Source: a virus
Length of the DNA stretch: 55,706 nucleotides
Virus record (IMG/VR): IMGVR_UViG_3300007345_000047
Direction: 5' to 3' (one strand)
Part shown: positions 1 through 55,706 of the stretch, piece after piece
Numbering within the stretch: the first letter of the stretch is position 1
How the letters are laid out: every line of letters starts with the position of its first letter
Program-made: the position numbers and the translations under genes
The notes under the pieces: model-generated
What the model was told of the DNA's origin: nothing
What the model saw: the letters and a program-made list of their open reading frames with translations, nothing else
The model's database searches: none

Positions 1-123
1 AGATCAGGGGGGTGCCCCCAGCAGCCAGCAGCAGCCAGCAGCCTGAGAGCCCCGCCAGGCGTGGCCTGTAGCCCTCCCAGCCAGCCACCAGCAGCCACCA
101 GCCAGCCCCGATCCGCTCCCAGC
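1..123. repeat. Terminal direct repeat / circularisation overlap, left copy
   Basis: Bases 1-123 recur exactly at 55584-55706, so the unit genome is 55583 bp. Confidence 0.95.
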
Positions 124-154
124 AGCCACCAGCCAGCCCCGATCCGCTCCCAGC
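93..154. repeat. Perfect tandem duplication of a 31-bp unit (agccaccagccagccccgatccgctcccagc)
   Basis: 93-123 equals 124-154, read directly. Confidence 0.95.
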
Positions 155-178
155 TGCTCCCAGCCACTGCGGCCACAG

Positions 179-227
<49 letters not shown>

Positions 228-426
228 TCGCGTTTTAAGGGAGCTGGGAGAGCTGCCAGCTGCCACCAGCAGCCCGCAGCGACCGACCAGTGTCTGACTG
301 ATGCCACAATCCCTGTAACAGACAACCATCAGACAACCCCAAGAGACACGCCACAAGCCCCATACCCTCTACCTCTATACCCCTTTATGTCTTAATGGGG
401 TATATAAGACATAGGCTACAGGCACA

Positions 427-447
427 GCTGCTGCTGCTGCTGCTGCT
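427..447. repeat. (GCT)7 trinucleotide microsatellite
   Basis: 7 uninterrupted gct units. Confidence 0.95.
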
Positions 448-597
448 ACAGCCCCAGCCACCAGCCCGCCCAGCTGGCGGTATACCCCCCTTCCGTCAGT
501 CATTCCAGACATCAGAATATTCCCAGTGTTTATGCGGGCTGTAGCCGGTCTGGCTCGGCACCCGTGTCTGGATGTGCCCGACACAGCAAATAATCGC

Positions 598-627
598 TTG
601 ACAGCGTAACGGATACGGGACTATGCT
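598..627 (+). promoter_or_regulatory. Sigma70-like early promoter candidate
   Basis: TTGACA (598-603), 18-bp spacer, TATGCT (622-627), just upstream of the first + strand start region. Confidence 0.4.
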
Positions 628-681
628 GCGAACGCAGCAACGGATTAACCAGCCCACAGGGCAAAACACAAGGAAAACGTA

Positions 682-768
682 ATGAATCAACAACTTAGAG
701 ACCACGGCATCAGCCTCCTGCTTATCGCAGCCCTTCTACTGGTACGCTTCGGAGGGGTCGCAGCATGA
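682..768 (+). CDS. Possible 28-aa hydrophobic leader peptide
   Basis: ATG 682 is preceded by ACAAGGA (668-674). The core is ISLLLIAALLLV. The TGA stop overlaps the ATG of the 765 gene (ATGA). Confidence 0.3.
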   Translation: MNQQLRDHGISLLLIAALLLVRFGGVAA

Positions 769-1532
769 ACGTACAATCACTGATAGCACGGGGCGCGATC
801 TTCTACTGCAGCACCAGCGGTGGCAAAGACAGTCAGGCGATGACAGCTCTTCTGGCACGCTTGATCCCTGCAGAGCAGCTGGTCTATGTGCACGCCAATC
901 TGGGTGAGGTCGAGTGGCACGGGGTGCAGGATCACATCAACGACACACTACCAGCCGGTGGTGAGCTAAACGTGGTCACGGCTAACTGGGCTGATGGCAC
1001 CGAGAAGACGCTGCTCGGCATGGTCGAGAATCGCGGTATGTGGCCGTCATCAGCCTACCGTCAGTGCACCAGCGACCTGAAGCGCAACCCGATCCAGAAG
1101 TTTATCCGCAGAGACCTGAAGGCACGCGGATCGAAGCTGGCCGTCAACTGCATGGGCATCCGATCCGAAGAATCCAAATCGAGAGCCAAGAACATCTCAG
1201 AGAAGTTCGTCGATGGCTGGAGGCTGGCCACTAAGGAGATGTGCGCGGCTGGCCGTGAAGTCTACGATTGGTATCCGCTCCACGACTGGTCAACTGAGAT
1301 GGTATTCGCCCAGATCAAGCGAGCTGGCCAGCAGCCACACTACGCATACGCCGAGGGCAACGAACGCCTAAGCTGCTGCTTCTGCATCATGGGCAGCAAA
1401 AACGACCTACGCAACGCCGCCCGTCTTCGCCCAGAGCTGGCAGCGAAGTACATCGCGCTGGAAGAGAAGATCGGCCACAGATTCACTGATAAGGCCACAC
1501 TGGCCGAACTGATAGCAACCGACGCGCAATAG
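765..1532 (+). CDS. PAPS reductase-like PP-loop ATP pyrophosphatase family protein
   Basis: N-terminal PP-loop FYCSTSGGKDSQAM and C-terminal Cys cluster ERLSCCFCIMG, typical of the PAPS reductase/DndC-like fold. Confidence 0.8.
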   Translation: MNVQSLIARGAIFYCSTSGGKDSQAMTALLARLIPAEQLVYVHANLGEVEWHGVQDHINDTLPAGGELNVVTANWADGTEKTLLGMVENRGMWPSSAYRQCTSDLKRNPIQKFIRRDLKARGSKLAVNCMGIRSEESKSRAKNISEKFVDGWRLATKEMCAAGREVYDWYPLHDWSTEMVFAQIKRAGQQPHYAYAEGNERLSCCFCIMGSKNDLRNAARLRPELAAKYIALEEKIGHRFTDKATLAELIATDAQ

Positions 1533-1592
1533 TCGAAACGGGGCGAGTCCCCGTCTGCAGGTCACGGCCTCCCTGCACTGATGAGACAGGCC
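1530..1592 (+). ncRNA. Type II hammerhead self-cleaving ribozyme, copy 1
   Basis: Order is UAGUC-GAAA, then stem III (ACGGGG/CCCCGU, loop CGAGU), then C1555 as cleavage site. Stem I follows (UGCAG 1556-1560 / CUGCA 1573-1577), then CUGAUGA (1578-1584), then GAC. The complete core is in the stem-II-open order. Confidence 0.85.
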
Positions 1593-1614
1593 AACAACTA
1601 CAAGGAATAAACGT

Positions 1615-2169
1615 ATGAACAAGTATCACTTCAATATTAAAGGATCAATGATCGACTCAGCCCGCGAGATACTAGGCGACCGAATGACAATGATCGGTAC
1701 GGGTGGAGGCTTCGATTATATTATGGTGCGATCCACCGAGAACCGTGACTTTGTGCTCTCCGGAGAGTGGTGCGATAGCTCGCCTGATTCGATGGATGAG
1801 TCCAGCAGCGTCTCGATCCAGAGGTGCAGCGCAGCAGAGTATGGCGAGTGGGATTGCGAGGGCTATGAGATCGCATTCGAGGGCACAGCCCAGCAGTGCC
1901 TGACATTTATGTCTATGCTCCCAGCTGTCTCTCTGGATGAGCGCAACGACGGCCTAGTGCGAGAGTTCGCCCAGATGTGCTCCGACCACTATCTGGAGAC
2001 GGGTGAAGACTTGCCCTATTCGACAGAGATGTTCGATGCCGACGGCACGAAGATCGTTAACCCGTGGATGGATGAGACCGGCAGATACCCCGTCGATCCC
2101 ACAGAGTACTACGGCATGGCATTCACAAAATGGTACGCGCCGACGCGAACCATTATGGGGAGTTTCTAA
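1615..2169 (+). CDS. Hypothetical protein (acidic)
   Basis: 184-aa ORF. The start is preceded by UACAAGGA (1599-1606). Confidence 0.6.
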   Translation: MNKYHFNIKGSMIDSAREILGDRMTMIGTGGGFDYIMVRSTENRDFVLSGEWCDSSPDSMDESSSVSIQRCSAAEYGEWDCEGYEIAFEGTAQQCLTFMSMLPAVSLDERNDGLVREFAQMCSDHYLETGEDLPYSTEMFDADGTKIVNPWMDETGRYPVDPTEYYGMAFTKWYAPTRTIMGSF

Positions 2170-2170
2170 T

Positions 2171-2356
2171 ATGAACCAGACTATATGGGTAACAATTGGG
2201 CATCAGTATGGGCGCGTCATCTACAAGCCAGCCAATGAGATCGCGAAGCTATTCGCAGATGTCGCTGGCACGCAGACTCTAACGCCCAATACCATCGCCC
2301 TGCTGAAGGCTGCAGGGTACACAATCAAAGTAGATCAACCGGAGGTGACAATATGA
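2171..2356 (+). CDS. Hypothetical protein (61 aa)
   Basis: ATG 2171 has GGGGAG 8 nt upstream. It is the in-frame tail of the listed ORF 2003..2356. Confidence 0.5.
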   Translation: MNQTIWVTIGHQYGRVIYKPANEIAKLFADVAGTQTLTPNTIALLKAAGYTIKVDQPEVTI

Positions 2357-2565
2357 TTATCGGAACTCTTATTGAAATGGCGCACACGTATGGCTTCCTC
2401 AATGCGGTAATGCTGCTGGCCGTGCTGGTCTGTCTCATTATCACGCTGATCGGGATGGTCACGGATCGCAGGGCTATGGAGCGGTTTCAGGCTGCGATGG
2501 CAACTAAGCGCGAGCAGCAGATGGTATGGGATCGCAACGAGTTCACAGATGAAATGATGAGTTGA
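2353..2565 (+). CDS. Small membrane protein
   Basis: GGAGG RBS and ATGA overlap with the upstream gene. One hydrophobic helix (FLNAVMLLAVLVCLIITLIGMV). Confidence 0.55.
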   Translation: MIIGTLIEMAHTYGFLNAVMLLAVLVCLIITLIGMVTDRRAMERFQAAMATKREQQMVWDRNEFTDEMMS

Positions 2566-2572
2566 GACTGTC

Positions 2573-2617
2573 GGTGACCTTCTAGCGAGGGTCACCCGCA
2601 GTAGCAATTCCGCTACT
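2573..2617 (+). promoter_or_regulatory. Conserved two-hairpin RNA motif, copy A
   Basis: Hairpin 1: GGTGACC-TTCTAGCGAG-GGTCACC (2573-2596). Hairpin 2: AGTAGC-AATTCC-GCTACT (2600-2617). The same architecture with different stem sequences occurs at 5344-5388. Confidence 0.5.
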
Positions 2618-2633
2618 TACAGGGAAACAAGTT

Positions 2634-3029
2634 ATGTCTAAGACAATTGAGCAGCAAATAGCAATAATCGAGAACGCATTAATGAGCCACTGCGAGGACT
2701 GTGTGAGCCGCCATGCAGAGCAGAGGCGAGTGGATAAAGCATTCGATGCACTCTGCAAACGGGCACTGCCATCAGGCCTGGCGAAAGCCTGGGACACAAA
2801 AAGCGAGCTCGAATTGACCGATCTATTAGAGTGGTACACCAGCGCAAATAGATTGCCGATGATGTCGGCAGATGAACTGCTTGCAGAGCTGCCAGACCTC
2901 GGGCTTACCGAGCGAGTGCAGGAATGCCACCGAGTGTGGCTGAACGCATTCTGTGAGGCGTGGGAGTTATTGGACGCGCCCAGCCAATCCGAAGAACTGA
3001 AGGCGGCCATACGCTGGATGAAGGTGTAG
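2634..3029 (+). CDS. Hypothetical protein
   Basis: 131-aa ORF. The start is preceded by UACAGGGA (2618-2625). Confidence 0.6.
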   Translation: MSKTIEQQIAIIENALMSHCEDCVSRHAEQRRVDKAFDALCKRALPSGLAKAWDTKSELELTDLLEWYTSANRLPMMSADELLAELPDLGLTERVQECHRVWLNAFCEAWELLDAPSQSEELKAAIRWMKV

Positions 3030-3094
3030 CCCAGACCGTCAATTAATGCTATAAAGCAATCCACACTCATTCATTTATTACAGGGAAAACAGTT

Positions 3095-3526
3095 ATGACA
3101 GCATTTACAGGTAAAATTGAAAACATCGAACGCATGGCCAGCAGCAGGAACGGCAACCCCCGCTACAAGTTCACCGTGGGCGGCCAGAGTGTCAAGCTGG
3201 CACCGGACAGCAGCTGGGGCTACTGCATCACCAACCTACGCAATCGCCACGTGACCGTAGAGGTCACGCCCCTACAGCATCTGGTTAAAAGCATCTGTGC
3301 TGCAGACCACTGGGAGGTCGAAGAGCTAGACGCATCTGGGGGATGGGAGAACAACTGGCACGATGAGACCGGCCAGCCCCAGACCTTCTCCACCAGAGGC
3401 GAAGCGCACGCAGAACTGGACGACCTGCTGGAGTCCGTGCAGCTGGCAGTGGCCGATGGTCACATGGCCGCAGAGTACAGCCGCGAAGATTACCGCGTAG
3501 TAATGGTCGGGGGGCGTGCAATATAG
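3095..3526 (+). CDS. Hypothetical protein
   Basis: 143-aa ORF. The start is preceded by UACAGGGA (3079-3086). Confidence 0.6.
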   Translation: MTAFTGKIENIERMASSRNGNPRYKFTVGGQSVKLAPDSSWGYCITNLRNRHVTVEVTPLQHLVKSICAADHWEVEELDASGGWENNWHDETGQPQTFSTRGEAHAELDDLLESVQLAVADGHMAAEYSREDYRVVMVGGRAI

Positions 3527-3586
3527 TCGAAACGGGGCGAGTCCCCGTCTGCAGATATCGGCCACCCTGCACTGATGAGACAGGCC
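3524..3586 (+). ncRNA. Type II hammerhead self-cleaving ribozyme, copy 2
   Basis: Same core and stems as copy 1: GAAAC 3529-3533, cleavage after C3549, CUGAUGA 3572-3578. It differs from copy 1 only at 4 loop-I positions. Confidence 0.85.
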
Positions 3587-3603
3587 ATTACACGGAGAAT
3601 GTT

Positions 3604-4332
3604 ATGAAGACAATCGAACTAATAGAACGCGCACCAATCTCGGAGGAGCTGAGAGCAGCCCTCCTTCCCGCAATAGCTAAGGCTGGCAAGTGGAGGGGGT
3701 CCCTGCTGGCCAACGCACCAGCCACCAATATCGCATGGCAGGTGCTGGTCGGTTTCGCTGCTCCAGCCCGCGTTAAGGTCTGGGGGATGATGGGCGAGAA
3801 CGCCGCACGATTCAATCACCTCGACGACCTAGCAGTGGCCAGCGGCATCAACTGGGCTAGAGCACTGAGCGCGACAGAGCCCTACGCACGCTGGAATGCC
3901 GATGGCCTAGATTTGGATCGCGATGCAATTCTGCGCGAGATCGAGCCGCACTTGCTACCAGCTAAGGCGACGGTAACTAAGAAGCGGGCGCATCCCTGCG
4001 TCGAGTTCCTAGATGTAGTGGCCGACGCACTGGCCGCTGGGTTCGGCGATATGCTGCACTTGGGGGAATTCAAAGACGATAGAGGCCATGACAAATTTAA
4101 GATAAAGCTGCTATGGGAGAACACTACTCTCAATGTGGTCATGGATAACAATGTGGCCGCGATCCGCGACCGTGCAGATCGCCTCGACCAGCAGATACGA
4201 GGTCATAAGGCCAAGGGAGAGGGCTCCACGCTAAAAGAGTACCGCAGGATGCGTAACTGGAAGCCCAGCTACAAAGTCGTGCCACTGAGCCCAGAGAGAG
4301 CCGCTGAGTGCGGCATGGAGATGGGGCTGTGA
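3604..4332 (+). CDS. Hypothetical protein
   Basis: 242-aa ORF. The start is preceded by UACACGGA (3589-3596). Confidence 0.6.
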   Translation: MKTIELIERAPISEELRAALLPAIAKAGKWRGSLLANAPATNIAWQVLVGFAAPARVKVWGMMGENAARFNHLDDLAVASGINWARALSATEPYARWNADGLDLDRDAILREIEPHLLPAKATVTKKRAHPCVEFLDVVADALAAGFGDMLHLGEFKDDRGHDKFKIKLLWENTTLNVVMDNNVAAIRDRADRLDQQIRGHKAKGEGSTLKEYRRMRNWKPSYKVVPLSPERAAECGMEMGL

Positions 4333-5333
4333 ACTACTATAACGAGTTCGACCCTTTCGCAGCCGCTTGGCTTGAAGAATTAATCAAAGACGGACTGATC
4401 CCAGCAGGGACAGTCGATCAGAGGAGCATTACCGATGTCAGACCCGAAGACCTTAAAGACTTTACCCAATGCCACTTTTTCGCAGGAATCGGCGGTTGGA
4501 GCTACGCACTCCAGCTTGCAGGATGGAGCCCCGATAGACCCGTCTGGACAGGATCACCCCCCTGCCAGCCTTTCTCAGTCGCAGGAAACCAAAAAGGTAA
4601 GGACGATCTTCGACACCTCTGGCCTGTCTTCTTCAATCTTATCCGCGAGTGTCAACCTGCAGTCGTTTTTGGTGAGCAGGTTGCCAGTGCGATTAGACAG
4701 TCTTGGTTCGACGATCTACAAACGGACATGGCGGCAGAAGGCTACGCCAGCGGATTGGCCGTACTGCCAGCTTGCAGCGTCGGTGCCCCGCACAAAAGGG
4801 AAAGACTCTTCTATGTCTCGGAGCGGATGGGCAACACCGAATACAATGGACGTACTGCCACTGAGGTCGGAAGAGGCTCTACGCAAGCAAGCGACAGGGG
4901 CGAGGAAGGGCAGGACGTTTCCAGCGAATCTACGGGAGCAGGTAGACCCTCGATCTCAGGAGATATACGCCGATGCGAGTTCTGTCCCCACGCCTACGAC
5001 GAAGAGCTTGGACGATACGGGTGCCCCAACTGTCTCGGTACAGGGTTGGACAACACCGAATACGCGGGACTGGAAGGACACAGCGGGGCAGTCAACGGAG
5101 GGGGAGGGCAACAGGCAGCGGATAGATCAAACGCCCAGGCAAGCGTTCCAGTTGATTGGAGCGATGTCTACTACCCCCGATTTAGGGACGGAAAATGCCG
5201 CCCAGTACCAACTGAATCCACGCTTTTCCCTTTGGCTCATGGGGTTCCCAACAGGGTGGGCATCCTGCGCGGAGCGGGTAACGCTATTGTCCCGCAAGTC
5301 GCAGCCGAAGTCATAAGGGCGTACATGGGCTGA
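4308..5333 (+). CDS. DNA (cytosine-5)-methyltransferase with internal zinc ribbon
   Basis: Motifs FAGIGG (I), PPCQPFS (IV), GEQV (VI), PHKRERLF (VIII), GAGNAIVPQV (X), plus CEFC-x12-CPNC. The start could instead be GTG 4329, which overlaps the upstream stop. Confidence 0.85.
   Translation: MRHGDGAVNYYNEFDPFAAAWLEELIKDGLIPAGTVDQRSITDVRPEDLKDFTQCHFFAGIGGWSYALQLAGWSPDRPVWTGSPPCQPFSVAGNQKGKDDLRHLWPVFFNLIRECQPAVVFGEQVASAIRQSWFDDLQTDMAAEGYASGLAVLPACSVGAPHKRERLFYVSERMGNTEYNGRTATEVGRGSTQASDRGEEGQDVSSESTGAGRPSISGDIRRCEFCPHAYDEELGRYGCPNCLGTGLDNTEYAGLEGHSGAVNGGGGQQAADRSNAQASVPVDWSDVYYPRFRDGKCRPVPTESTLFPLAHGVPNRVGILRGAGNAIVPQVAAEVIRAYMG
4435..5316 (+). other. 293-codon +1-frame ORF nested in the methyltransferase gene, with MTase-like motifs in its 3' half
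   Basis: Reads GWATPNTMD (4825-4851), GWTTPNTRDWKD (5044-5079) and LNPRFSLWLMGFPTGW (5212-5259). There is an in-frame ATG at 4813. The 5' part is low-complexity. Confidence 0.3.
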
Positions 5334-5343
5334 GAGCCTAACT

Positions 5344-5388
5344 GGGTAGTCTTCTCGCGAGGGCTACCCCTGATAGACTTTCCTATCA
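5344..5388 (+). promoter_or_regulatory. Conserved two-hairpin RNA motif, copy B
   Basis: Hairpin 1: GGGTAGTC-TTCTCGCGAG-GGCTACCC (5344-5369). Hairpin 2: TGATAG-ACTTTC-CTATCA (5371-5388). Confidence 0.5.
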
Positions 5389-5412
5389 ACTAGCATTTAC
5401 AAGGATAAAACT

Positions 5413-5802
5413 ATGAGCAATTACTTCTATAAATATAATGTGGCTCCGAAGGGTAAGAGAAGAGGCACCGTGAGATTCTTCAAAGCACTGTCGGACTGCA
5501 TCCAATTCGCAGAACTGCACGAGGGATCGCGACTAATGCACCGCAACCAAGTCGAGGGCGGCAGCGAGAGCCTGACCTGCACGCTCGACAGCCTGGATTC
5601 GGCCACACTAGGCACGTTCACCGACCGCGTGCAGCACGGATCGCGACCATCAGAACGGACAATCGATGTCTACGCGGAGGCGTACTCCTACGGATCGCAG
5701 GACAATGGCAAGCTGGTGGGTGTCATTTCCTGCTTTAAATTTGCCGACATCGATCAAATTCTAGCCACAAGGGGACTGTCCGATGTTATTTCTAACTCGT
5801 AA
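5413..5802 (+). CDS. Hypothetical protein
   Basis: 129-aa ORF. The start is preceded by UACAAGGAU (5398-5406). Confidence 0.6.
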   Translation: MSNYFYKYNVAPKGKRRGTVRFFKALSDCIQFAELHEGSRLMHRNQVEGGSESLTCTLDSLDSATLGTFTDRVQHGSRPSERTIDVYAEAYSYGSQDNGKLVGVISCFKFADIDQILATRGLSDVISNS

Positions 5803-5953
5803 GCCCCAACCAGGGCAGGATACAATACTCATAGGCGACAATATCCGCGTGGTTATACGCCGGATCGACGAGCACAATCAGGTACGGGTGGGCATCACAG
5901 CCCCGATAGAGATCAATATTGTCAGAGAGGAGATCGACAATCGTGGGAAATAA
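5783..5953 (+). CDS. csrA: CsrA/RsmA-family RNA-binding translational regulator homologue (56 aa)
   Basis: Not in the ORF track (too short). Own translation: MLFLTRKPQPGQDTILIGDNIRVVIRRIDEHNQVRVGITAPIEINIVREEIDNRGK. This aligns with CsrA MLILTRR..GE.L.IGD...V.V......QVR.G..AP....V.REEI. Confidence 0.8.
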   Translation: MLFLTRKPQPGQDTILIGDNIRVVIRRIDEHNQVRVGITAPIEINIVREEIDNRGK

Positions 5954-6140
5954 TCCGGATTACTACAGACTAGGCAACACCGTGTACGGTGCCAAGACGC
6001 GATGCAGTGACAGCCAGTGCGAGAGTAACTGCGTTTTTCCTGAGTGCTGCTGCGAGAAGAACGAGCATTCGACTGCAGCTGCAGCCGATAAAGCCGTGAA
6101 CTCTCTCAAGCTGCTGAAGAAGAAGGTCGAGATACTTTGA
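5943..6140 (+). CDS. Hypothetical Cys-rich small protein
   Basis: GTG 5943 has GAGGAG upstream; the track start is TTG 5919. The start is uncertain. Confidence 0.4.
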   Translation: MGNNPDYYRLGNTVYGAKTRCSDSQCESNCVFPECCCEKNEHSTAAAADKAVNSLKLLKKKVEIL

Positions 6141-6340
6141 TCTTCAAGCTGGCACGGGTGATCTTCGATGTCGTAGTGTTAACTACATCGAGCCCGTGCT
6201 CGCCGGAAATGGTACACTATCTACCATACGAGCCCGCCAATCCAGGGATAGTTAAGCTGGACGCACTACCAGATGGCGGGTGCATTATCCGATATAAGAC
6301 AGTGGACTTTAAGTTACCCGAAGACTGGGTGGGAGTATAA
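6137..6340 (+). CDS. Hypothetical protein
   Basis: ORF with a TTG start overlapping the upstream stop. Weak support. Confidence 0.3.
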   Translation: MIFKLARVIFDVVVLTTSSPCSPEMVHYLPYEPANPGIVKLDALPDGGCIIRYKTVDFKLPEDWVGV

Positions 6341-6341
6341 G

Positions 6342-6515
6342 ATGGCTAAGTCAGCAAGAGATAGAATGGCAGAGATGAGGGTGCGGCAGAAGGAGCTGGG
6401 GCGTAACAGTCGCCAGCTGTGGTTGACACCCTTCGAGGAGAACGAACTAAAAGTGCTGCTTGAGATATTACGAAGTGGCTCCGAGGTACGCGATCCCCAA
6501 GCCGACGATAGTTAG
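6342..6515 (+). CDS. Hypothetical small basic protein (57 aa)
   Basis: ATG 6342 lies directly after the previous stop. Sequence begins MAKSARDRMAEMRVRQKELGRNSRQLWLTPFEENELKVLLEILR. Confidence 0.45.
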   Translation: MAKSARDRMAEMRVRQKELGRNSRQLWLTPFEENELKVLLEILRSGSEVRDPQADDS

Positions 6516-6791: not shown

Positions 6792-6983
6792 AGCACGGGT
6801 CTCGGTTACATGAACAGTTTAACTAATTATCGCATTCGGAGGCTTGCTTTGTCACGCGGGGGATGCGTAGGATAGAGGGTACTCTCAAGCGATACGTGGG
6901 GTATCGCTGAGAATAGTCAAGGCATTCAACGGTTCGCCTCTTCACCAGGCTACTCAGCTGGGGACGAAATTACTGAGTTCTAG

Positions 6984-7008
6984 GGGATCCTTCGGGATCC
7001 CTTTTTTT
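6984..7008 (+). terminator. Rho-independent terminator, + strand orientation
   Basis: GGGATCC-TTCG-GGATCCC followed by seven T. In the - direction no U-tract follows the hairpin. Confidence 0.75.
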
Positions 7009-27916: not shown

Positions 27917-30900
27917 CTAGTTTTTGTCTCTACCTTCCACGAATGGCTGCAGTGCTGCACCCACCACTTCCGGAATTGTTTCTGGTGCCTTCTCGTTACC
28001 TTCAAGAGCCGACTTTGTGTAGTCTAGCATTCTGACGACATTACCTGAACCTGGCAGTGCAATGAAAGTGCCAGCAACCTTGATAAAGTTCTCCAGTGTC
28101 TCAGCAGTATTAGCCCACGAAGGATTCGTTACCGCCTCCAACAGTTTCGGACCCTGAGACGGCAGCTGCTGCACGGTGCCAATGGCATCGTCCATCAGCG
28201 TGCTTGGCTTGAAGTTACTTTGACCAGGCAGCAGGTCTCCGAAGATTGGGATAGTGGCTCCCATAAAGCCGGTGTAACCCAGCCCCAGCCACTTAGCTAC
28301 CTTCAGAGGGAACTCGTCGTCGCGCTCGTCGTCGTCCAGCTTCGGTATGTTCATCGCAATTACTTCCGACAGAACCATTGTGAGCATTGGGGTTAGCACG
28401 AGTGCCTCGAACGCTGGAATGGACATCCACTCCTTACCGCCGCGAGTGTTTCTGTAAGCACGCTGGAAGATAGAAGAGTTGAACCAAGACCCAAAGACTG
28501 TAAGCATCTTCATGTAGGCAGCTTCATTAGACCGGAATATCTTACCTAAGTGAAGATCCATGCCGGAGCCGATAGTCTCAGCCACTGTTACATCTGCATT
28601 AAGGATGGCCAGCTCCTCGTCGCCGTGTTTCGTCATCTCGTTGCTGTATGTAGCCAGCCATGTGGGGTAAGAAACCACCATGTCCAGCATCACGTGCGGC
28701 GTGAAACCGTGCTGTGCGAATTTATTAAGAGCAGCTTCTGCCTTCGAGCCACTCTCCACACGCTTCATCAGATCCGCAGCTTCTCGGTTCAGGTGAGCTT
28801 TACGCGCTCGCATCTGGGCAGACTTCTCCTCCACGAACGCGCGGTTCTCTGCGAAGTTCCCATGAAAAGCCAAGGACGCACTGCTGTAGTTTATTGGACC
28901 CATCTCTGCCATCGAAGGGAGGACGGATGCCACCTGCTGCATAATGTTCTTCACGTTGTAGGCGAGATACATCATAGACTTAGAGTAGCGGATTTGTCTG
29001 ATTATAGCGGCCAGTGCAGGTATGGGATCCTGCTCTTTTAGATTTGTAGTTAAGCCCTGGATCGACTGCATCATCGCCTTATCAAAGCCCTCGCCAAACT
29101 TGTCTGCAAGTGAGGTACGGACCTCTTTGTCATTGAACAAAGACTGCAGCTCCGTAGCGGTTGTAGCGTACGCGATGTAGTGCGCGTTCTCTTCGATGAC
29201 CCTGTAGATGTTCTGCACTTCCAGCAGTGGCTTCCTGCCGCCTGAGCCCGAACGAGCCGTAGCTGCGGTGGCCTTACTGTTCGAGAGAGAGTTGACCGTG
29301 TTCAAAGGGTCTTCGTCTAGTCGTACCTTCGCATCTATGTCGCCGCCAGAACCACCGTAGATGAGAGTCATGTGCCCACCACGCATGGTCTTTCCATTCA
29401 CAGTGAAAGGCATGTGGGTCTCCAGAGGAGGAGCCACACCCTCGCGGTCGTGCGTTGCTTGGAACAGCGGGGTCTTCATGTGGTCACTCAGCTCCCACAG
29501 TGACTGGACCATGTCGAGCTCCTGCTCGGACATCTGCTCCATCATTCGCATAACGTCATTGTCGGTGACATCGAAGCCTTTACGAACAGCCTCTTGGCTA
29601 GTATCAGTCCCCCAGTACGCAGCAAGCATGAATCGCTGGCGAGCAGACAGATGCCATTTGCTCCCGTCCTCTTTGGTCACGCTTCGAACCGACGCGCTAC
29701 TATCAGCTATACCAGTGAGGTCTGCATCAGCGAACAGCTCGTCTAGTTTTCCATAGAAGTCTTCGAGAATGTTCAGCTTGGCGTTCTCGGCGTTGCTGAT
29801 CCTACGGTAGACACTGTCGAAGAATGCGCCGTCGCCAAGGTCTCGAATCATATTACGCAGCGAGGGCACCAGGTGGATAGCGTGCTGTATCCAACCGCGC
29901 ATCCTGTGGCGACTAGATGCCTCCCAATCTGCTTTACTCTTTGACTCTCCCATCTCTTCCAGCTGGGCGAGCATAGCGTTGCGTTCCATAGAGAGCGGCC
30001 CCTTGTCTTCGGCGGCGATCTGCCCGCCCACGAACCGTAGGTGCTTGAGCTGGTCGCTCACACTTTCCAGCTGCTCCAGTGTCATCTCATCAAACGTAGG
30101 AAGGTACTCTAGGCCAGCCCGCAGCTCTATTACATTTAGATCCTTCAAGTTCACATCGACACCGTCGCGCTGCTGACCGGCGATCCAGTTAGCAAAGTCT
30201 CGTGCAGCCTTGACTCTCTTTCCTTCTTTCGGTCTGCTGGAAGTGTCATACATTTTAGCCAGCCGCTTCATGGACTGTATGTATTCTGCATCCACCTGAG
30301 TGGTCTTGTAGTCTCTCTTCTGTACGCCCCTAATATAGTCGCGGTACGTGATCGCATCCTTTCTAGCTTTAAGAGCGGCCAGGAATAAATAGTGGTTAGC
30401 TATCTGCTGGAGTTTAGCATCGTACGCTGCTTCCGCTGTCTTGGCGCGAGCCGCATCCTGTGCAGCCCTTACCTCTGCCCTGTGGAATCGCTCTGGCTTC
30501 AACTCGCCGTAGGTCATAGTTCCCACACTCTGTGCAGCTTTAGCCTTCAGGAATTCTTTGTCCACATCTGGGGTGCTCTTCTTCCGTGAGCGGGACTTGA
30601 TAGCTCTCAGTTCCTTCAGCATCAGATCGGCTTGCGCCTCATTGTGCATAGCTTCTCTGGCTTCAGCTTCGATAGTTCCGTCGTTGAGCATGTCGCCGTA
30701 CTTGGCAACCATTATCTCTTCCGCAGCAGCATCTGCCGCAGCAGTAATCCCTTCAGCATTGTGGACAGCGGTGACCATCTCTTCTACAGATGCAAATCCT
30801 AATTGCTCTGCCAGAAGCTCTGGGTCATCCCCGCCTTTCTTAGTTAGGAACTGCAGCTTAGTTTTCTTAGGGAGAGACTCCACGCCCATAGCAGCCACTA

Positions 30901-33900
30901 CAGCATCGCGATCGAGGGGCAGGTCTTTCATTATGCCCATAGCCTGGTAGACAGGCTGTCCTGCCAGCTTCTCTTTTTGTTCTGCAATGAGAGGCTTCTT
31001 CTCTTCGTTCCACTCTTTACTGCGGCGAGCTCCCAGTTCTTTCAGTAGCTTCTCGAACAGAGTCATCTCTGCATTCTTCTTTCGAGTTTCAAGAGACTTC
31101 TGGTAGCTCTCCCACTGCTTGTCGGTCATACCGGCTCGCTCTTTGCCCTTAAAGAGCTGCTCGTACTCAGCACCAGCGGCCACATTGGCAATCTCTGCTT
31201 CAGTAGCCAGCATGCGATCAAAGATCTCAGTTATCTCTTTATTAAGAGGAAGGCCGAGCTGGCGCATGGACTTATAAATTTGTCCCAACCACTTGGAGAA
31301 TTGCAGGAAGGCAGCTCGTAGTCCACGAGTGGGAGCCTTACCCGTACGCAAGTAATCCTCAAAGGTTCTCGCCCACAGTTCATGCTCTTTGACACCAATG
31401 GCATCGAAGGAGTCTACACCTAGCATCTTCAGCATGGCTTTCTGGTTATCGCCCAGACCATACTTCGCTGCTAGTGACTTCTCAGTCTCTAGGAACAGGT
31501 GACCTGCTTCATGTAAGAATGTGGACTTATCAGATCCAGCAGCCAGCTCAATGAGCTTCTCGCCGGACTTCATAATCTCTATGCTGCCGCGTGGCGCATC
31601 TTTTCCAGGCTTCTTCTGAGCTAGGATTGTGGCCTCGTTTGCACGGTCTGGATCGAATACAGCGTTGATAGATCGAATGTGTGCAGGATCGAATATCGCA
31701 GTGTTCTTGATATTGTCGGGGTCATTGTTGCCGCGTTTGGGATCCCCTCCTTCAAGCACAGTGAATGCAGTGTATTGCATGTCTCTGATGGCCACTTGAA
31801 TAGCGGAGTCTTTCTCTACGATCTCCCAGTTGCCCGATTCGATCGCACGCATTCGCCAGTCAGCTCCGGCCTTCAACTGGTCACCAGGTGTGCCGGTTGC
31901 CTCTAGCTCTATCTGGATGTGTTGGTGGAGATCGTTGTACTCGTCCTCGGTCAAGTTCTGGTGGTCTAGTAGCTTGTCCTTCTTAATAAGCAAAGGATAC
32001 ACGGGACCGACAGAAATGCCTGAAGGTGGAACGAATCCCTCGTTGTAGCCCGCGAACGTAGATGCAAAGTCTGGATCCGGAGTTACGAATATAAAGTCTC
32101 TGCCGTTGTCGAAGCGGTCGAGTACGAACCCCATAATGTTAGAAGCTGTGGTGCCGTGGTAGTAGATGTTCTCAGTGTCGAATCCCATCTCCTTGGCACG
32201 CTGCATTCTGGCACTGAAGGTCATGCCCTCTTCGCCAAACTTCTCAACACCTTTGATCCAGTCCACAGCTTCGATAGCATCTCTGCCCTTATAGCTAGTC
32301 TGCTCATTCACAGCATCGAGCATGGCGGTCTCAGATATTTCCTGAAGATCGAACTCCACATCGTCAGTGATCCGCACACCAAGACTCTCAAGCTCTGCGA
32401 GTGCTTCGTTGAATTTGTCCTGTCTGGCTTTCTCTACGTCGGACTGATTGAGGACAAGTGAGCTTTCATCTTTTTGAAATTCAGGTGGGGCTGTTGGTTC
32501 TGTGCCCGTATCTGATCGTCGCTTACTCCCTCGTTTGGACTTTGCGCTGTCTGGTCGATTAGACTCAACTTCGCTTTCGCCGAGTCTAGCTGTAGCGAGT
32601 CTTCGGAATTCTTCTTCATAGTCGGTAGCCTCTGTTTTCTTGCTGCCCACACCATTGGTGACATACAAGTCTTTTTCTAAATACCACACCAATGCTTGAA
32701 ATGTGGCGGCGTTCAATTCTATACCCTCGGCCTTCAATTGAGCAAGACCCTCGTACGACACTTCTCGAATCCAGTTCCGGTTGCTTCCGTTGCCAGGCTC
32801 GATCACAGGGTCGTTCACTGCTTCGTATAAATTCTTAGCAGTCTTGTTAATGTCAGACTTGTCTTTGTATTTGCTGCGAGCATATCTGGCACGGTACTCT
32901 TTAGCGAGTTCCAGCAGCGCGTCGTCGTCCTTCATCAGCAGAGCTTTGTTGATGCCTGGAGTTCTAGGGGGCAGTGCCTTAATGGCTGCTCTAAACTTCG
33001 CAGCACGGGTGCTACTCTTGTCACCCTTCTTTGACTCGGCGTGCATGGCATCTTCACGGATAGGCATGTTAGTACCAGTCCATCTTCCCCATGTCTTCAT
33101 AAACCAGCGATCCATAGTTATGGGATCGTAGTTGCCACTGAGGTTCTGATAGAACGCTCCCAGCTTAGGTCCGAGAATCATAGAGCCGTTGACTACAGTG
33201 TCCTGCAGCTCTCCGGACACTGTGATGCCAGTGAATTCGGCAAGGTCTCGCACGGTGATTGGGTTCTCTAACATCCTAACAGTGTCCTTCATCCCCATAC
33301 CGGAGATAAGGCTGTTCATCAGCTTGAAGTGACCCTTGTTCGCTGCGATTGTGGTAGACCAGCCAATGATCGGGAACTTCTTCTTCTTTTTGTAGTAGCT
33401 GTAGACCTCCTCAGCATGCTTGGAGTTAGACTCCACATCTGCCATATTCGAGCTGATAGCCATAGCCAGCTTGAAGATAACTAATGCTTCCGGATCTGTC
33501 TGCAGCTCTGGGTGGATAAGAGCCGCGTAGTGCATTGCAGATTCGATGCTGGTGCTGTACCAGTCGGCTCCGTTGCCAGATTGGCTAAGTGCCCACTTCA
33601 CTTCTTCCTTCATCGTTTCGACGATAATGGCTTTGTTCTCTTCGGTTCGCTCGCGGAGTGGCCCGCCGTGCTCTTCGGCTATCAGCTCATCCAAGCGAGT
33701 AGCAAGCATGGACGCAGTGACCTTACCCTTCTCAGGGATTCCATCGATCTTCTCTCCGGAGGTAATAGACTTCAAAGTCACATTGTCGCCGGTCAAGTCT
33801 ACTTCAGCTTGATATAAGAAGTCAGACGAGTCGCCGTATGTTGGGTTCTTCGCCAGAGTTAAGGGTCCGACCTGGAGCACCTCGACTGCACCTACTATAG

Positions 33901-55493: not shown

Positions 55494-55583
55494 ACTTTTT
55501 CATATTTTAGAACTGCAGGGGTTTTTGGTCGCTGAGAGCGTGTTCGCCTATTGGGCGCGTAGCGAAAGGTCGCAGCCCCCCTC

Positions 55584-55706
55584 AGATCAGGGGGGTGCCC
55601 CCAGCAGCCAGCAGCAGCCAGCAGCCTGAGAGCCCCGCCAGGCGTGGCCTGTAGCCCTCCCAGCCAGCCACCAGCAGCCACCAGCCAGCCCCGATCCGCT
55701 CCCAGC
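55584..55706. repeat. Terminal direct repeat / circularisation overlap, right copy
   Basis: Identical to 1-123. The copy starts inside the loop of a C6/G6 hairpin (55576-55595). Confidence 0.95.

What the first reader, a model, noticed from the sequence alone, without database searches (positions are those of the whole stretch)
5783..5953. Phage-encoded CsrA/RsmA homologue missed by the ORF track
A 56-codon ORF overlaps the end of gene 5413..5802. It translates to MLFLTRKPQPGQDTILIGDNIRVVIRRIDEHNQVRVGITAPIEINIVREEIDNRGK. This aligns along its whole length with bacterial CsrA ([48 protein letters not shown]). The alignment includes the N-terminal LxLTR strand, the QVR(I/V)G(V/I)xAP strand and the REEI segment holding the RNA-binding arginine. 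A global post-transcriptional regulator carried in a phage early operon would let the phage reprogram host CsrA-controlled translation or control its own mRNAs.
Basis: partly seen in the sequence, partly recalled or inferred. Interest (0 to 1): 0.75.

Follow-up and report, generated by a model that had tools for sequence, protein, structure and literature searches.

The report
Phage-encoded CsrA-family RNA-binding regulator gene
A small gene in this uncultured phage genome really does encode a relative of the bacterial translation regulator CsrA, but phages carrying such genes are already catalogued and this gene is already annotated as CsrA in public databases, so it is a solid but unsurprising find.

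Summary
Window 5783..5953 (+) is a 56-codon ORF whose product matches Pfam CsrA (PF02599) at 55.1 bits (cut-off 27; E 7e-15). It also matches PHROG 9500 'CsrA-like regulator' and solved CsrA/RsmA/RsmE structures by sequence. By predicted fold it matches them too (pLDDT 89.7, TM 0.75-0.79). The core RNA-binding residues are kept: L2, L4, R6, and R48, E50 and I51 (E. coli R44, E46, I47). A diverged syntenic relative shows strong purifying selection (synonymous sites saturated, pN 0.24).

The window is a complete ~55.7-kb podovirus-like genome from metagenomes. No integrase or repressor was found among the proteins scanned. The gene lies in a + strand operon with a PAPS-reductase-like gene and a C5 DNA methyltransferase, and it overlaps both of its neighbours.

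It is not new as a kind. Phage csrA genes were catalogued in 2020 and 2021, more than 200 IMG/VR contigs carry relatives, and JGI/IMG already names this exact protein 'carbon storage regulator CsrA'.

It does differ from the best-studied CsrA proteins. It has a 3-residue insertion in the β1-β2 loop, V in place of H43, and a very short C-terminus. It also has a conserved, overlapping Cys-rich downstream partner gene. Its RNA targets and its host are unknown.

Verdict: a new member of a known kind, of low to moderate interest.

The parts
5783..5953 (+). csrA-like gene: 56 aa, ATG start, TAA stop
   Evidence: The ORF and its translation are confirmed. It scores 55.1 bits on PF02599 against a cut-off of 27 and hits PHROG 9500. 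It matches PDB CsrA chains by sequence and by predicted fold. Against the L014 orthologue pN is 0.24 and pS is 0.84. Public pipelines call it and name it CsrA.
5770..5775 (+). Shine-Dalgarno-like AGGGGA, within CCACAAGGGGACUGUCCG-AUG, serving csrA
   Evidence: Read directly from the sequence. The predicted fold of the leader pairs ACAUCG (5747-5752) with CGAUGU (5781-5786) and so sequesters the start codon. That fits translational coupling to the upstream gene. This is an inference.
5413..5802 (+). Upstream 129-aa gene of unknown function; its last 20 nt overlap the start of csrA
   Evidence: ORF listed. No Pfam or PHROG hit. Homologues sit directly upstream of csrA in L014 and L160. It is poorly conserved (28% aa identity to L014).
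5943..6140 (+). Downstream 65-aa Cys-rich gene (GTG start) overlapping the csrA 3' end by 11 nt. The GAGGAG of the csrA R-E-E codons lies about 9 nt upstream and serves as its SD.
   Evidence: Gene calls; sequence. A homologous gene overlapping csrA is conserved in L014, L160, L161 and L162/L163, with four invariant Cys (C-x4-C-x3-C-x4-C) and a C-terminal helix-like segment. No Pfam or PHROG hit.
598..627 (+). Sigma-70-like promoter match (TTGACA-18-TATGCT) upstream of the + strand operon that contains csrA
   Evidence: Consensus scan, 10 of 12 matches, but the number of sites in the region is not above chance. It lies in the 435-nt divergent intergenic region 330..764. Weak evidence.
6982..7003 (+). 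Intrinsic-terminator-like hairpin (9-bp stem, T-run) beyond the end of the + strand operon
   Evidence: Consensus scan. It sits between the convergent + and - strand gene blocks. Weak evidence.

Best explanation
The ORF is a real, expressed and selected phage gene. It encodes a CsrA/RsmA-family protein that most likely forms the usual interdigitated homodimer and binds GGA-containing RNA segments through its β1 (L2, L4, R6) and β5/α (I46, R48, E50, I51) surfaces.

It is made from a host-RNA-polymerase-type + strand operon together with DNA-modification genes (a PAPS-reductase-like protein and a C5 methyltransferase). It is translationally coupled to the gene upstream and to a conserved Cys-rich gene downstream.

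In the infected cell it would add CsrA-type activity. It would occupy GGA motifs at ribosome-binding sites of host mRNAs, and possibly phage mRNAs, or of host decoy sRNAs, and so shift translation in the phage's favour.

What is shown: family membership, fold, conserved binding residues, purifying selection, and gene context. What is inferred: dimerisation, GGA binding, timing of expression, and which RNAs are targeted.
For: - Family membership: Pfam CsrA 55.1 bits against 27, E 7e-15; PHROG 9500 'CsrA-like regulator' E 4e-11; E 1e-6 to 5e-5 to six solved CsrA/RsmA/RsmE sequences over residues 1-54.
- Fold: the AF2 protomer has pLDDT 89.7. The ten best PDB matches are all CsrA/RsmA/RsmE chains, with TM 0.75-0.79 for nine of them (0.60 for a truncated chain, 0.53 for the 1y00 NMR model) and rmsd 1.6-2.2 Å apart from 1y00 (5.0 Å). 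The next match has TM 0.41.
- Binding residues: L2, R6 and R48 (E. coli R44) are invariant, and L4, G37, A40, P41 and E50 nearly so, among the 94 nearest representatives.
- Selection: against the syntenic relative L014 the gene has pS 0.84 (saturated) and pN 0.24. Its 67% aa identity exceeds that of both flanking small genes (28% and 47%).
- Persistence: the identical protein is found on 11 contigs from separate samples, including four independent ~55.7-kb assemblies.
- Context: the overlap with the downstream start is conserved.
- Precedent: a tested homologue on another mobile element, plasmid RsmQ, binds GGA/AnGGA hairpins and host RsmY/Z, heterodimerises with host Rsm proteins and rewires the host proteome (PMC9928087).
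Against: - No binding or expression data exist for this protein, and the host is unknown.
- It fails the NCBIfam CsrA equivalog cut-offs (46.9 against 73; 44.8 against 70.1), so it is not an orthologue of chromosomal CsrA.
- H43 is replaced by V47. H43A reduced binding in RsmQ. However, V is the commonest residue at this position among the nearest relatives (42 of 94).
- K38 is replaced by I42.
- The C-terminal helix is cut to about 8 residues after the key arginine, against a median of 21.
- The β1-β2 loop carries 3 extra residues close to the RNA-binding face, with unknown effect.
- The dimer could not be modelled with the tools available.
Confidence: 0.8

Rival explanations
1. The protein mainly regulates the phage's own mRNAs, as T4 RegA does by analogy. 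It would bind the UACA(N)GGA ribosome-binding cassettes of a subset of + strand (early/middle) genes and shut them off as it accumulates.
For: Six gene starts carry UACA(N)GGA(A/U) with GGA at -11 to -9: 1615, 2634, 3095, 3604, 5413 (the gene just upstream of csrA) and 19893 (primase). All six lie in + strand blocks. None of the roughly 45 - strand genes has it; most of those use GGAG-type SDs.

TACARGGA occurs 7 times against 3.0 expected, and only 2 of 100 shuffles reach that number. My rough estimate is 0.1-0.8 such RBS coincidences by chance against 6 seen.

The motif resembles the core of the CsrA SELEX consensus RUACARGGAUGU (my own knowledge). The diverged relative L014 keeps TACAAGGAA at two gene starts. 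The csrA RBS itself is ACAAGGGGA.
Against: - GGA in these leaders is predicted to be single-stranded after an upstream hairpin, not displayed in a hairpin loop. There is only one GGA per leader, whereas high-affinity CsrA binding normally uses loop-presented, paired sites (RsmQ dissociates quickly from linear sites).
- The full SELEX 12-mer with up to 2 mismatches is not enriched (9 against 12 expected).
- ACANGGA is not enriched genome-wide (27 against 28.4).
- The cassette is not seen at gene starts in the shorter, more distant csrA-carrying contigs apart from two weak cases.
- Any SD-like sequence resembles a CsrA site, so this could simply be an RBS cassette of early genes.
Confidence: 0.12
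2. The protein acts indirectly on the host Csr/Rsm system. It either soaks up host decoy sRNAs (the CsrB/RsmY/RsmZ type) and so frees host CsrA, or it forms heterodimers with host CsrA that change or poison host CsrA activity.
For: Both behaviours were shown for the plasmid homologue RsmQ, which binds RsmY/Z stem-loops and heterodimerises with RsmA and RsmE (PMC9928087). The dimer-core hydrophobic residues are conserved here. The phage carries no CsrB/Rsm-type sRNA and no GGA-dense region of its own, so any decoy would be a host RNA.
Against: The host is unknown, so it is also unknown whether the host has CsrA or decoy sRNAs. The closest bacterial CsrA proteins found are only 53-57% identical and lack the loop insertion, which makes heterodimer compatibility uncertain. 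There is no direct evidence.
Confidence: 0.2
3. The protein is an anti-defence factor. By mimicking RsmA/CsrA it represses translation of host immune genes such as CRISPR-Cas during early infection.
For: RsmA represses type I and type III CRISPR-Cas in Serratia, and phage RsmA homologues were proposed to exploit this (PMC8450108). The gene shares its operon with DNA-modification genes (a C5 methyltransferase and a PAPS-reductase-like protein) that are typical of anti-restriction modules.
Against: This is a purely contextual analogy. It has not been shown for any phage CsrA in the literature searched. The host and its defence systems are unknown.
Confidence: 0.1
4. The ORF is a chance open frame or a decaying remnant, and the CsrA resemblance has no functional meaning.
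For: It is short (56 codons), it overlaps both neighbouring genes, and it falls below common ORF length cut-offs.
Against: - The HMM E-value is 7e-15, with full-length coverage.
- The fold prediction is confident and specific to CsrA.
- Synonymous sites are saturated while 67% of residues are identical to a relative, which is better than either flanking small gene.
- The gene sits in the same position in at least five diverged contigs.
- Its own SD is at proper spacing.
Confidence: 0.02

Closest known systems
Chromosomal CsrA/RsmA/RsmE of Gammaproteobacteria (E. coli CsrA, PDB 1y00; P. aeruginosa RsmA, 1vpz; P. protegens RsmE-RNA complexes, 2jpp/2mf0)
   Same: Same Pfam family. There is 41-46% identity over about 54 aligned residues. 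The predicted protomer fold is the same (TM 0.75-0.79). It shares the M-L-x-L-T-R β1 strand, the Q-V-R-x-G-x-x-A-P strand and the R-E-E-I segment with the critical arginine.
   Different: It falls below the NCBIfam equivalog cut-offs. It has a 3-residue insertion in the β1-β2 loop and a 1-residue insertion in the β3-β4 turn. Substitutions are R7→K, K38→I and H43→V. β3 is arginine-rich (V-I-R-R-I against V-L-G-V). The C-terminus ends 8 residues after the key arginine, so most of the C-terminal helix and tail is missing. It is encoded by a virus and has no cognate decoy sRNA in the same genome.
Catalogued phage-encoded CsrA/RsmA homologues: PHROG 9500; the RsmM type in P. aeruginosa temperate phages phi297, F116 and H66; homologues in Bcep22, DC1, GP4, PEp14, Parlo and others (PMC7366521, PMC8450108)
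   Same: A CsrA-family gene carried by a tailed phage. It hits the phage family profile PHROG 9500 and is 43-53% identical to annotated phage genes. More than 200 IMG/VR contigs carry relatives. The proposed role is the same, host manipulation or anti-CRISPR activity, and it is untested.
   Different: Most viral homologues retrieved look like canonical V-H-R-E-E-I-Y proteins with long tails and no loop insertion. This one and its few relatives (L014, P0003, P0004, P0006) form a short, loop-extended I-V-R-E-E subclade. The carrier phage has no close cultured relative: portal identity is at most 28% and there is no megablast hit. No integrase or repressor was found among the proteins scanned, and its replication genes are T7-like. 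Many catalogued cases are temperate phages.
Plasmid-encoded RsmQ of pQBR103 (PMC9928087)
   Same: A CsrA-family regulator carried by a mobile element, and the only class of such homologue with direct biochemical tests. It provides the working model for how this protein may act: GGA/AnGGA binding, decoy sRNA binding and heterodimerisation.
   Different: RsmQ has the V-H-R-D/E motif, and H43A impairs its binding. This protein has V at that position. RsmQ sits on a plasmid in a known Pseudomonas host with a known Gac-Rsm system. Here the carrier is a phage whose host is unknown.
ICE-encoded CsrA paralogues of Legionella (CsrT; Lpp0168 of pP36; bioRxiv 10.64898/2026.02.27.708469)
   Same: A mobile-element CsrA-like cargo gene thought to hijack host post-transcriptional control.
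   Different: A different element type (integrative conjugative element) and a distant sequence. The phenotypes concern conjugation, growth arrest and persistence, not lytic infection.
Phage T4 RegA translational repressor (my own knowledge; an analogy of mechanism only)
   Same: If the 'own-mRNA' reading is right, a small phage protein would bind ribosome-binding regions of a set of early phage mRNAs and turn them off.
   Different: There is no sequence or fold relationship, and there is no evidence here that the phage leaders are bound.

Membership tests
CsrA/RsmA family (Pfam PF02599) | Significant full-length match to the family profile, above the curated gathering score | tested here: met
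   55.1 bits against a cut-off of 27, E 7.1e-15, residues 1-54 on profile positions 1-50 of 53. The precomputed PF02599 hit is also attached to the public gene calls.
CsrA/RsmA family (Pfam PF02599) | Conserved RNA-binding residues in β1 (L2, L4, R6, R7) and β5/α (V40, V42, R44, E46, I47). E. coli numbering; the importance of these residues is from my own knowledge of the alanine-scanning and structural literature, and from PMC9928087 for H43 and R44. | tested here: met
   L2, L4, R6, R48 (=R44), E50 (=E46) and I51 (=I47) are identical. R7→K, V40→I and V42→I are conservative changes. H43→V and K38→I differ. L2, R6 and R48 are invariant among the 94 nearest representatives.
CsrA/RsmA family (Pfam PF02599) | CsrA protomer fold: β-strands followed by a short C-terminal helix, open for strand exchange | tested here: met
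   AF2 gives pLDDT 89.7. The ten best Foldseek PDB matches are all CsrA/RsmA/RsmE, with TM up to 0.79 and rmsd 1.6 Å over 54 columns. In the monomer model DSSP assigns only strands β2-β4. That is expected, because β1 and β5 pair with the partner subunit.
CsrA/RsmA family (Pfam PF02599) | Interdigitated homodimer | not testable with these tools
   Only monomer prediction was available. Core hydrophobic positions are conserved.
CsrA/RsmA family (Pfam PF02599) | Specific binding of GGA motifs in RNA, and translational control | not testable with these tools
   This needs a gel shift or SPR assay and reporter assays. No data exist for this protein.
Bacterial CsrA orthologue (NCBIfam equivalogs NF002469 / TIGR00202) | Score above the curated equivalog cut-off | tested here: not met
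   46.9 against 73 and 44.8 against 70.1. It is a family member but not an equivalog of chromosomal CsrA.
Complete Csr/Rsm system (protein plus decoy sRNA) | A CsrB/CsrC/RsmX/Y/Z-type sRNA with many GGA hairpins encoded alongside | tested here: not met
   There is no Rfam hit of that type at E ≤ 1 anywhere in the window. No 150-nt window has more GGA than shuffles give (maximum 10 against a mean shuffle maximum of 9.9). A host-encoded decoy cannot be excluded.
Phage CsrA-like regulators (PHROG 9500) | Significant match to the phage family profile, and location in a phage genome | tested here: met
   PHROG 9500 E 4.1e-11 and PHROG 5527 E 4.3e-10. The window encodes portal, terminase, tail and replication proteins.
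RsmN/RsmF (permuted CsrA variant) | Rearranged topology with an inserted helix, and sequence similarity to RsmN/RsmF | tested here: not met
   Only marginal partial matches (E 0.11-0.13, residues 19-53). The order of strands is the canonical one.

The most novel reading that the evidence does not exclude
The phage carries a self-contained post-transcriptional circuit. A loop-extended, tail-less CsrA variant is co-translated with a conserved four-cysteine partner protein. The variant recognises the UACA(N)GGA ribosome-binding cassettes that follow hammerhead ribozymes or hairpins in the phage's own early/middle operons. This would give RegA-like temporal shut-off of early genes, with the Cys-rich protein acting as a modulator, as FliW or CesT do for bacterial CsrA.
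Probability: 0.1. Interest if true: 0.6.

Novelty: new member of a known kind. Interest (0 to 1): 0.3.

Why it matters
Phage-borne CsrA homologues are thought to let viruses take over a global translational switch of their hosts, with possible effects on metabolism, motility, biofilm and CRISPR-Cas immunity. In the literature searched here, no phage example has been tested experimentally. Only plasmid and ICE homologues have been.

This gene adds a well-supported example from an apparently non-temperate, uncultured podovirus that recurs in many metagenomes. It belongs to a compact 55-58-aa subclade with an altered loop next to the RNA-binding face and a conserved co-translated partner gene. 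It would be a convenient small protein for testing whether phage CsrAs bind the same GGA motifs as host CsrA.

It does not open a new category, and the annotation is already public.

Tried and rejected
- Identifying the phage by DNA similarity: there is no megablast match in 50,697 phage records. The portal is at most 28% identical to cultured phages. The phage is uncultured and cannot be named.
- Host prediction from the nearest bacterial CsrA proteins: the genome-contig scan gave only 37-57% identical hits from many phyla. Planctomycetota were frequent, but the search pattern biases this. None had the loop insertion. I make no host call. The first attempt with alignment A2 failed for lack of a conserved stretch.
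- dN/dS among the 11 exact-protein contigs: uninformative, because the set was selected for protein identity. Only two synonymous changes were seen. I used the diverged relative L014 instead.
- Phage-encoded decoy sRNA: no CsrB/Rsm family hit and no GGA-dense region. Rejected.
- Enrichment of the full SELEX consensus: none. Genome-wide ACANGGA enrichment: none.
- Hairpin-loop presentation of GGA in the six UACARGGA leaders: not found. The cassette is not conserved in short distant relatives. I kept the own-target idea only as a low-probability rival.
- Fusion of gp129 and CsrA by frameshifting: rejected. The overlap varies among relatives (20 nt, 1 nt, none), while an independent start with its own SD is always present.
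- Cys-rich downstream gene as an obligate partner: conserved only within this phage lineage, and absent next to csrA in L164, L166 and L013.
- Homodimer structure: could not be run, because the tool predicts single chains.
- The Bcep22 paper (PMC3187461) is not held.

Full report
**1. Observation**

Window 5783..5953 (+) is an ATG-to-TAA ORF of 56 codons. It begins 20 nt before the stop of the 129-codon ORF 5413..5802, in another frame. An SD-like AAGGGGA ends 7 nt before the ATG.

It has not been missed by the community. The identical protein is called by the JGI, ENA and Logan pipelines on 11 contigs, with PF02599 attached. JGI/IMG names it 'carbon storage regulator CsrA'.

**2. Is it CsrA?**

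- Pfam CsrA (PF02599) scores 55.1 bits against a gathering score of 27 (E 7e-15) over essentially the whole protein.
- PHROG 9500 'CsrA-like regulator' gives E 4e-11.
- phmmer against the PDB finds E. coli, Yersinia and Pseudomonas CsrA/RsmA/RsmE at E 1e-6 to 5e-5 over residues 1-54.
- The NCBIfam equivalog models for bacterial CsrA match but fall below their cut-offs (46.9 against 73). The protein is therefore a family member, not an orthologue of chromosomal CsrA.
- An AlphaFold2 model built on 94 relatives has pLDDT 89.7. Its ten best PDB matches are all CsrA/RsmA/RsmE chains (TM up to 0.79, rmsd 1.6 Å), and the next match is at TM 0.41.
- L2, R6 and R48 (E. coli R44) are invariant in the 94 nearest cluster representatives. 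L4, G37, A40, P41 and E50 are nearly so.

Departures from the gammaproteobacterial prototype:
- a 3-residue insertion in the β1-β2 loop (K-P-Q-P-G-Q-D-T against R-V-G-E-T);
- one extra residue in the β3-β4 turn;
- R7→K, K38→I and H43→V;
- an arginine-rich β3;
- a C-terminus that stops 8 residues after the key arginine, against a median of 21.

H43A lowers binding in plasmid RsmQ (PMC9928087). However, V is the commonest residue at that position among the nearest relatives (42 of 94), so this is a branch feature rather than a defect.

**3. Is it a real gene?**

L014 (IMG/VR, 7.1 kb) is a diverged syntenic relative. It carries the same neighbours and a 55-aa CsrA-like gene in the same slot. Between the window and L014, synonymous sites of csrA are saturated (pS 0.84) while pN is 0.24. 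The 67% amino-acid identity compares with 28% for the upstream gene and 47% for the downstream gene.

Further relatives at 51-70% identity show the same local arrangement: P0003 on L160, P0004 on L161, and P0006 on L162 and L163. Chance or decay is excluded.

**4. Where it sits**

The window equals JGI contig Ga0070754_10000237. Three other assemblies of 55,685-55,724 bp from other samples start at different points, so this is a complete, permuted genome.

It encodes portal, terminase, tail tubular proteins, a 2,841-aa virion-type protein, family-A DNA polymerase, primase, helicase, a Gp2.5-like SSB and exonucleases. No integrase or repressor was found among the proteins scanned, and no tRNA gene was found. 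No cultured phage is close: there is no megablast hit, and portal identity is at most 28%.

csrA lies in a + strand block (~330..6515) that also holds a PAPS-reductase-like gene and a C5 DNA methyltransferase. A sigma-70-like promoter match lies at 598..627, and a strong terminator-like hairpin at 6982..7003. Neither kind of site is more frequent than chance in the region. 'Early operon' is therefore a reasonable inference, not a result.

The csrA start codon is predicted to be buried in a stem with upstream sequence. The downstream 65-aa gene starts at a GTG 11 nt before the csrA stop, and the GAGGAG of the R-E-E codons serves as its SD. This is conserved in L014. Together these features indicate translational coupling of the three genes.

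**5. What it probably does**

The best-supported reading is an ordinary CsrA-type mechanism. A small homodimer binds GGA motifs in 5' leaders or decoy RNAs and changes translation, expressed by the phage to shift the infected cell's CsrA-controlled programme.

The only mobile-element homologues with direct tests behave this way. Plasmid RsmQ binds GGA/AnGGA hairpins and RsmY/Z, heterodimerises with host Rsm proteins and rewires the proteome (PMC9928087). An ICE-borne Legionella homologue affects growth arrest.

For phages, the published work is bioinformatic, and it proposes host manipulation or anti-CRISPR activity. One survey listed 30 phages in 2020 (PMC7366521). Another ran an HMM survey of GenBank and IMG/VR in 2021 (PMC8450108). 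My literature searches found no functional test of a phage CsrA.

**6. Targets: what I could and could not find**

The phage has no CsrB/Rsm-type sRNA and no GGA-dense region. The SELEX-type 12-mer is not enriched.

One lead emerged. Six gene starts share UACA(N)GGA(A/U) with GGA at -11 to -9. All six are in + strand blocks, and they include the gene just upstream of csrA and the primase gene. Most other genes use GGAG-type SDs. TACARGGA is modestly enriched (7 against 3.0 expected; 2 of 100 shuffles reach 7). L014 keeps TACAAGGAA at two starts.

Several points weaken the lead. The GGA is predicted to be single-stranded, not loop-presented. There is only one GGA per leader. The cassette is not evident in the short, more distant csrA-carrying contigs. 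I therefore treat 'regulates its own early mRNAs' as a low-probability rival.

**7. Comparison and novelty**

More than 200 IMG/VR contigs matched a single peptide pattern and encode CsrA relatives. Most of these look canonical: V-H-R-E-E-I-Y, long tails, no loop insertion. The present protein belongs to a compact, loop-extended I-V-R-E-E subclade. Of the 94 nearest representatives, 21 have the insertion.

None of the relatives retrieved in the scan of 185,579 bacterial species genomes has the insertion, and the best hit is 57% identical. That scan was pattern-limited. The host cannot be named.

Within this phage lineage csrA is always followed by an overlapping gene for a ~65-aa protein with four invariant cysteines. 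That protein has no database match. More distant csrA-carrying contigs lack it.

**8. Verdict**

The biological idea is plausible but already published as a hypothesis, and the gene is already annotated. It is a new member of a known kind, with some variant features worth a biochemical look. Interest is about 0.3.

Noticed in passing
window 1531..1595 (+) and 3525..3589 (+): There are two near-identical type II hammerhead ribozyme matches (RF02276). The first scores 38.1 bits (gathering score 37, E 3e-4). The second scores 32.2 bits (E 0.011). Each starts at the stop codon of a gene in the same + strand operon as csrA and ends 5-20 nt before a UACA(A/C)GGA ribosome-binding site. They would cut the polycistronic mRNA into segments, and the second cut would create the 5' end of the segment that carries csrA.
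   Followed up: partly
window gene starts 1615, 2634, 3095, 3604, 5413, 19893 (motif at about -16 to -7): These starts share a ribosome-binding cassette, UACA(N)GGA(A/U) followed by an A-rich spacer and AUG. It usually comes just after a hairpin or a hammerhead ribozyme. It is restricted to + strand blocks, and it resembles the core of the CsrA SELEX motif. It is statistically unusual at RBS positions, but the GGA is not presented in a loop.
   Followed up: yes
window 5943..6140 (+); L014 3535..3735; L160 517..714; L161 781..981; L162 836..1039: A conserved ~65-aa protein with four invariant cysteines (C-x4-C-x3-C-x4-C) and a helix-like C-terminal segment. It always overlaps the 3' end of csrA in this phage lineage. 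It has no Pfam or PHROG match. It could be a zinc-binding partner or modulator.
   Followed up: partly
window 765..1532 (+) and 4308/4329..5333 (+): A PAPS-reductase-domain protein (PF01507, PHROG 424) and a C5 DNA methyltransferase (PHROG 363, PF00145) lie in the same operon as csrA. This suggests a DNA-modification or anti-restriction module.
   Followed up: no
window 27917..36442 (-): A 2,841-aa ORF in the structural block, with an N-terminal LPD22 'large polyvalent protein' domain and a long match to PHROG 9880 of unknown function. It is probably a giant ejected or internal virion protein.
   Followed up: no
P0005, P0008, P0010 and others; L153 6001.. (Planctomycetia MAG): Many metagenomic proteins contain 2-4 tandem CsrA domains, for example 275-303 aa with 3-4 matched stretches. 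One planctomycete reading frame stays open for 811 codons without a stop and shows repeated CsrA-like segments at its start. These would be single-chain 'pre-dimerised' or multivalent CsrA proteins.
   Followed up: no
L002 (IMGVR_UViG_3300007747_000083) 2656..2795: A temperate-phage fragment with an integrase and cI-like and Cro-like regulators. A 56%-identical CsrA-like segment lies next to the immunity region. No ORF of 40 aa or more is listed at that spot, so it may be shorter or degraded.
   Followed up: no
window 55575..55706 joined to 1..329 (-): A 153-aa gene called in other assemblies runs across the ends of the window. This confirms that the contig is a circular permutation of a complete genome.
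   Followed up: partly
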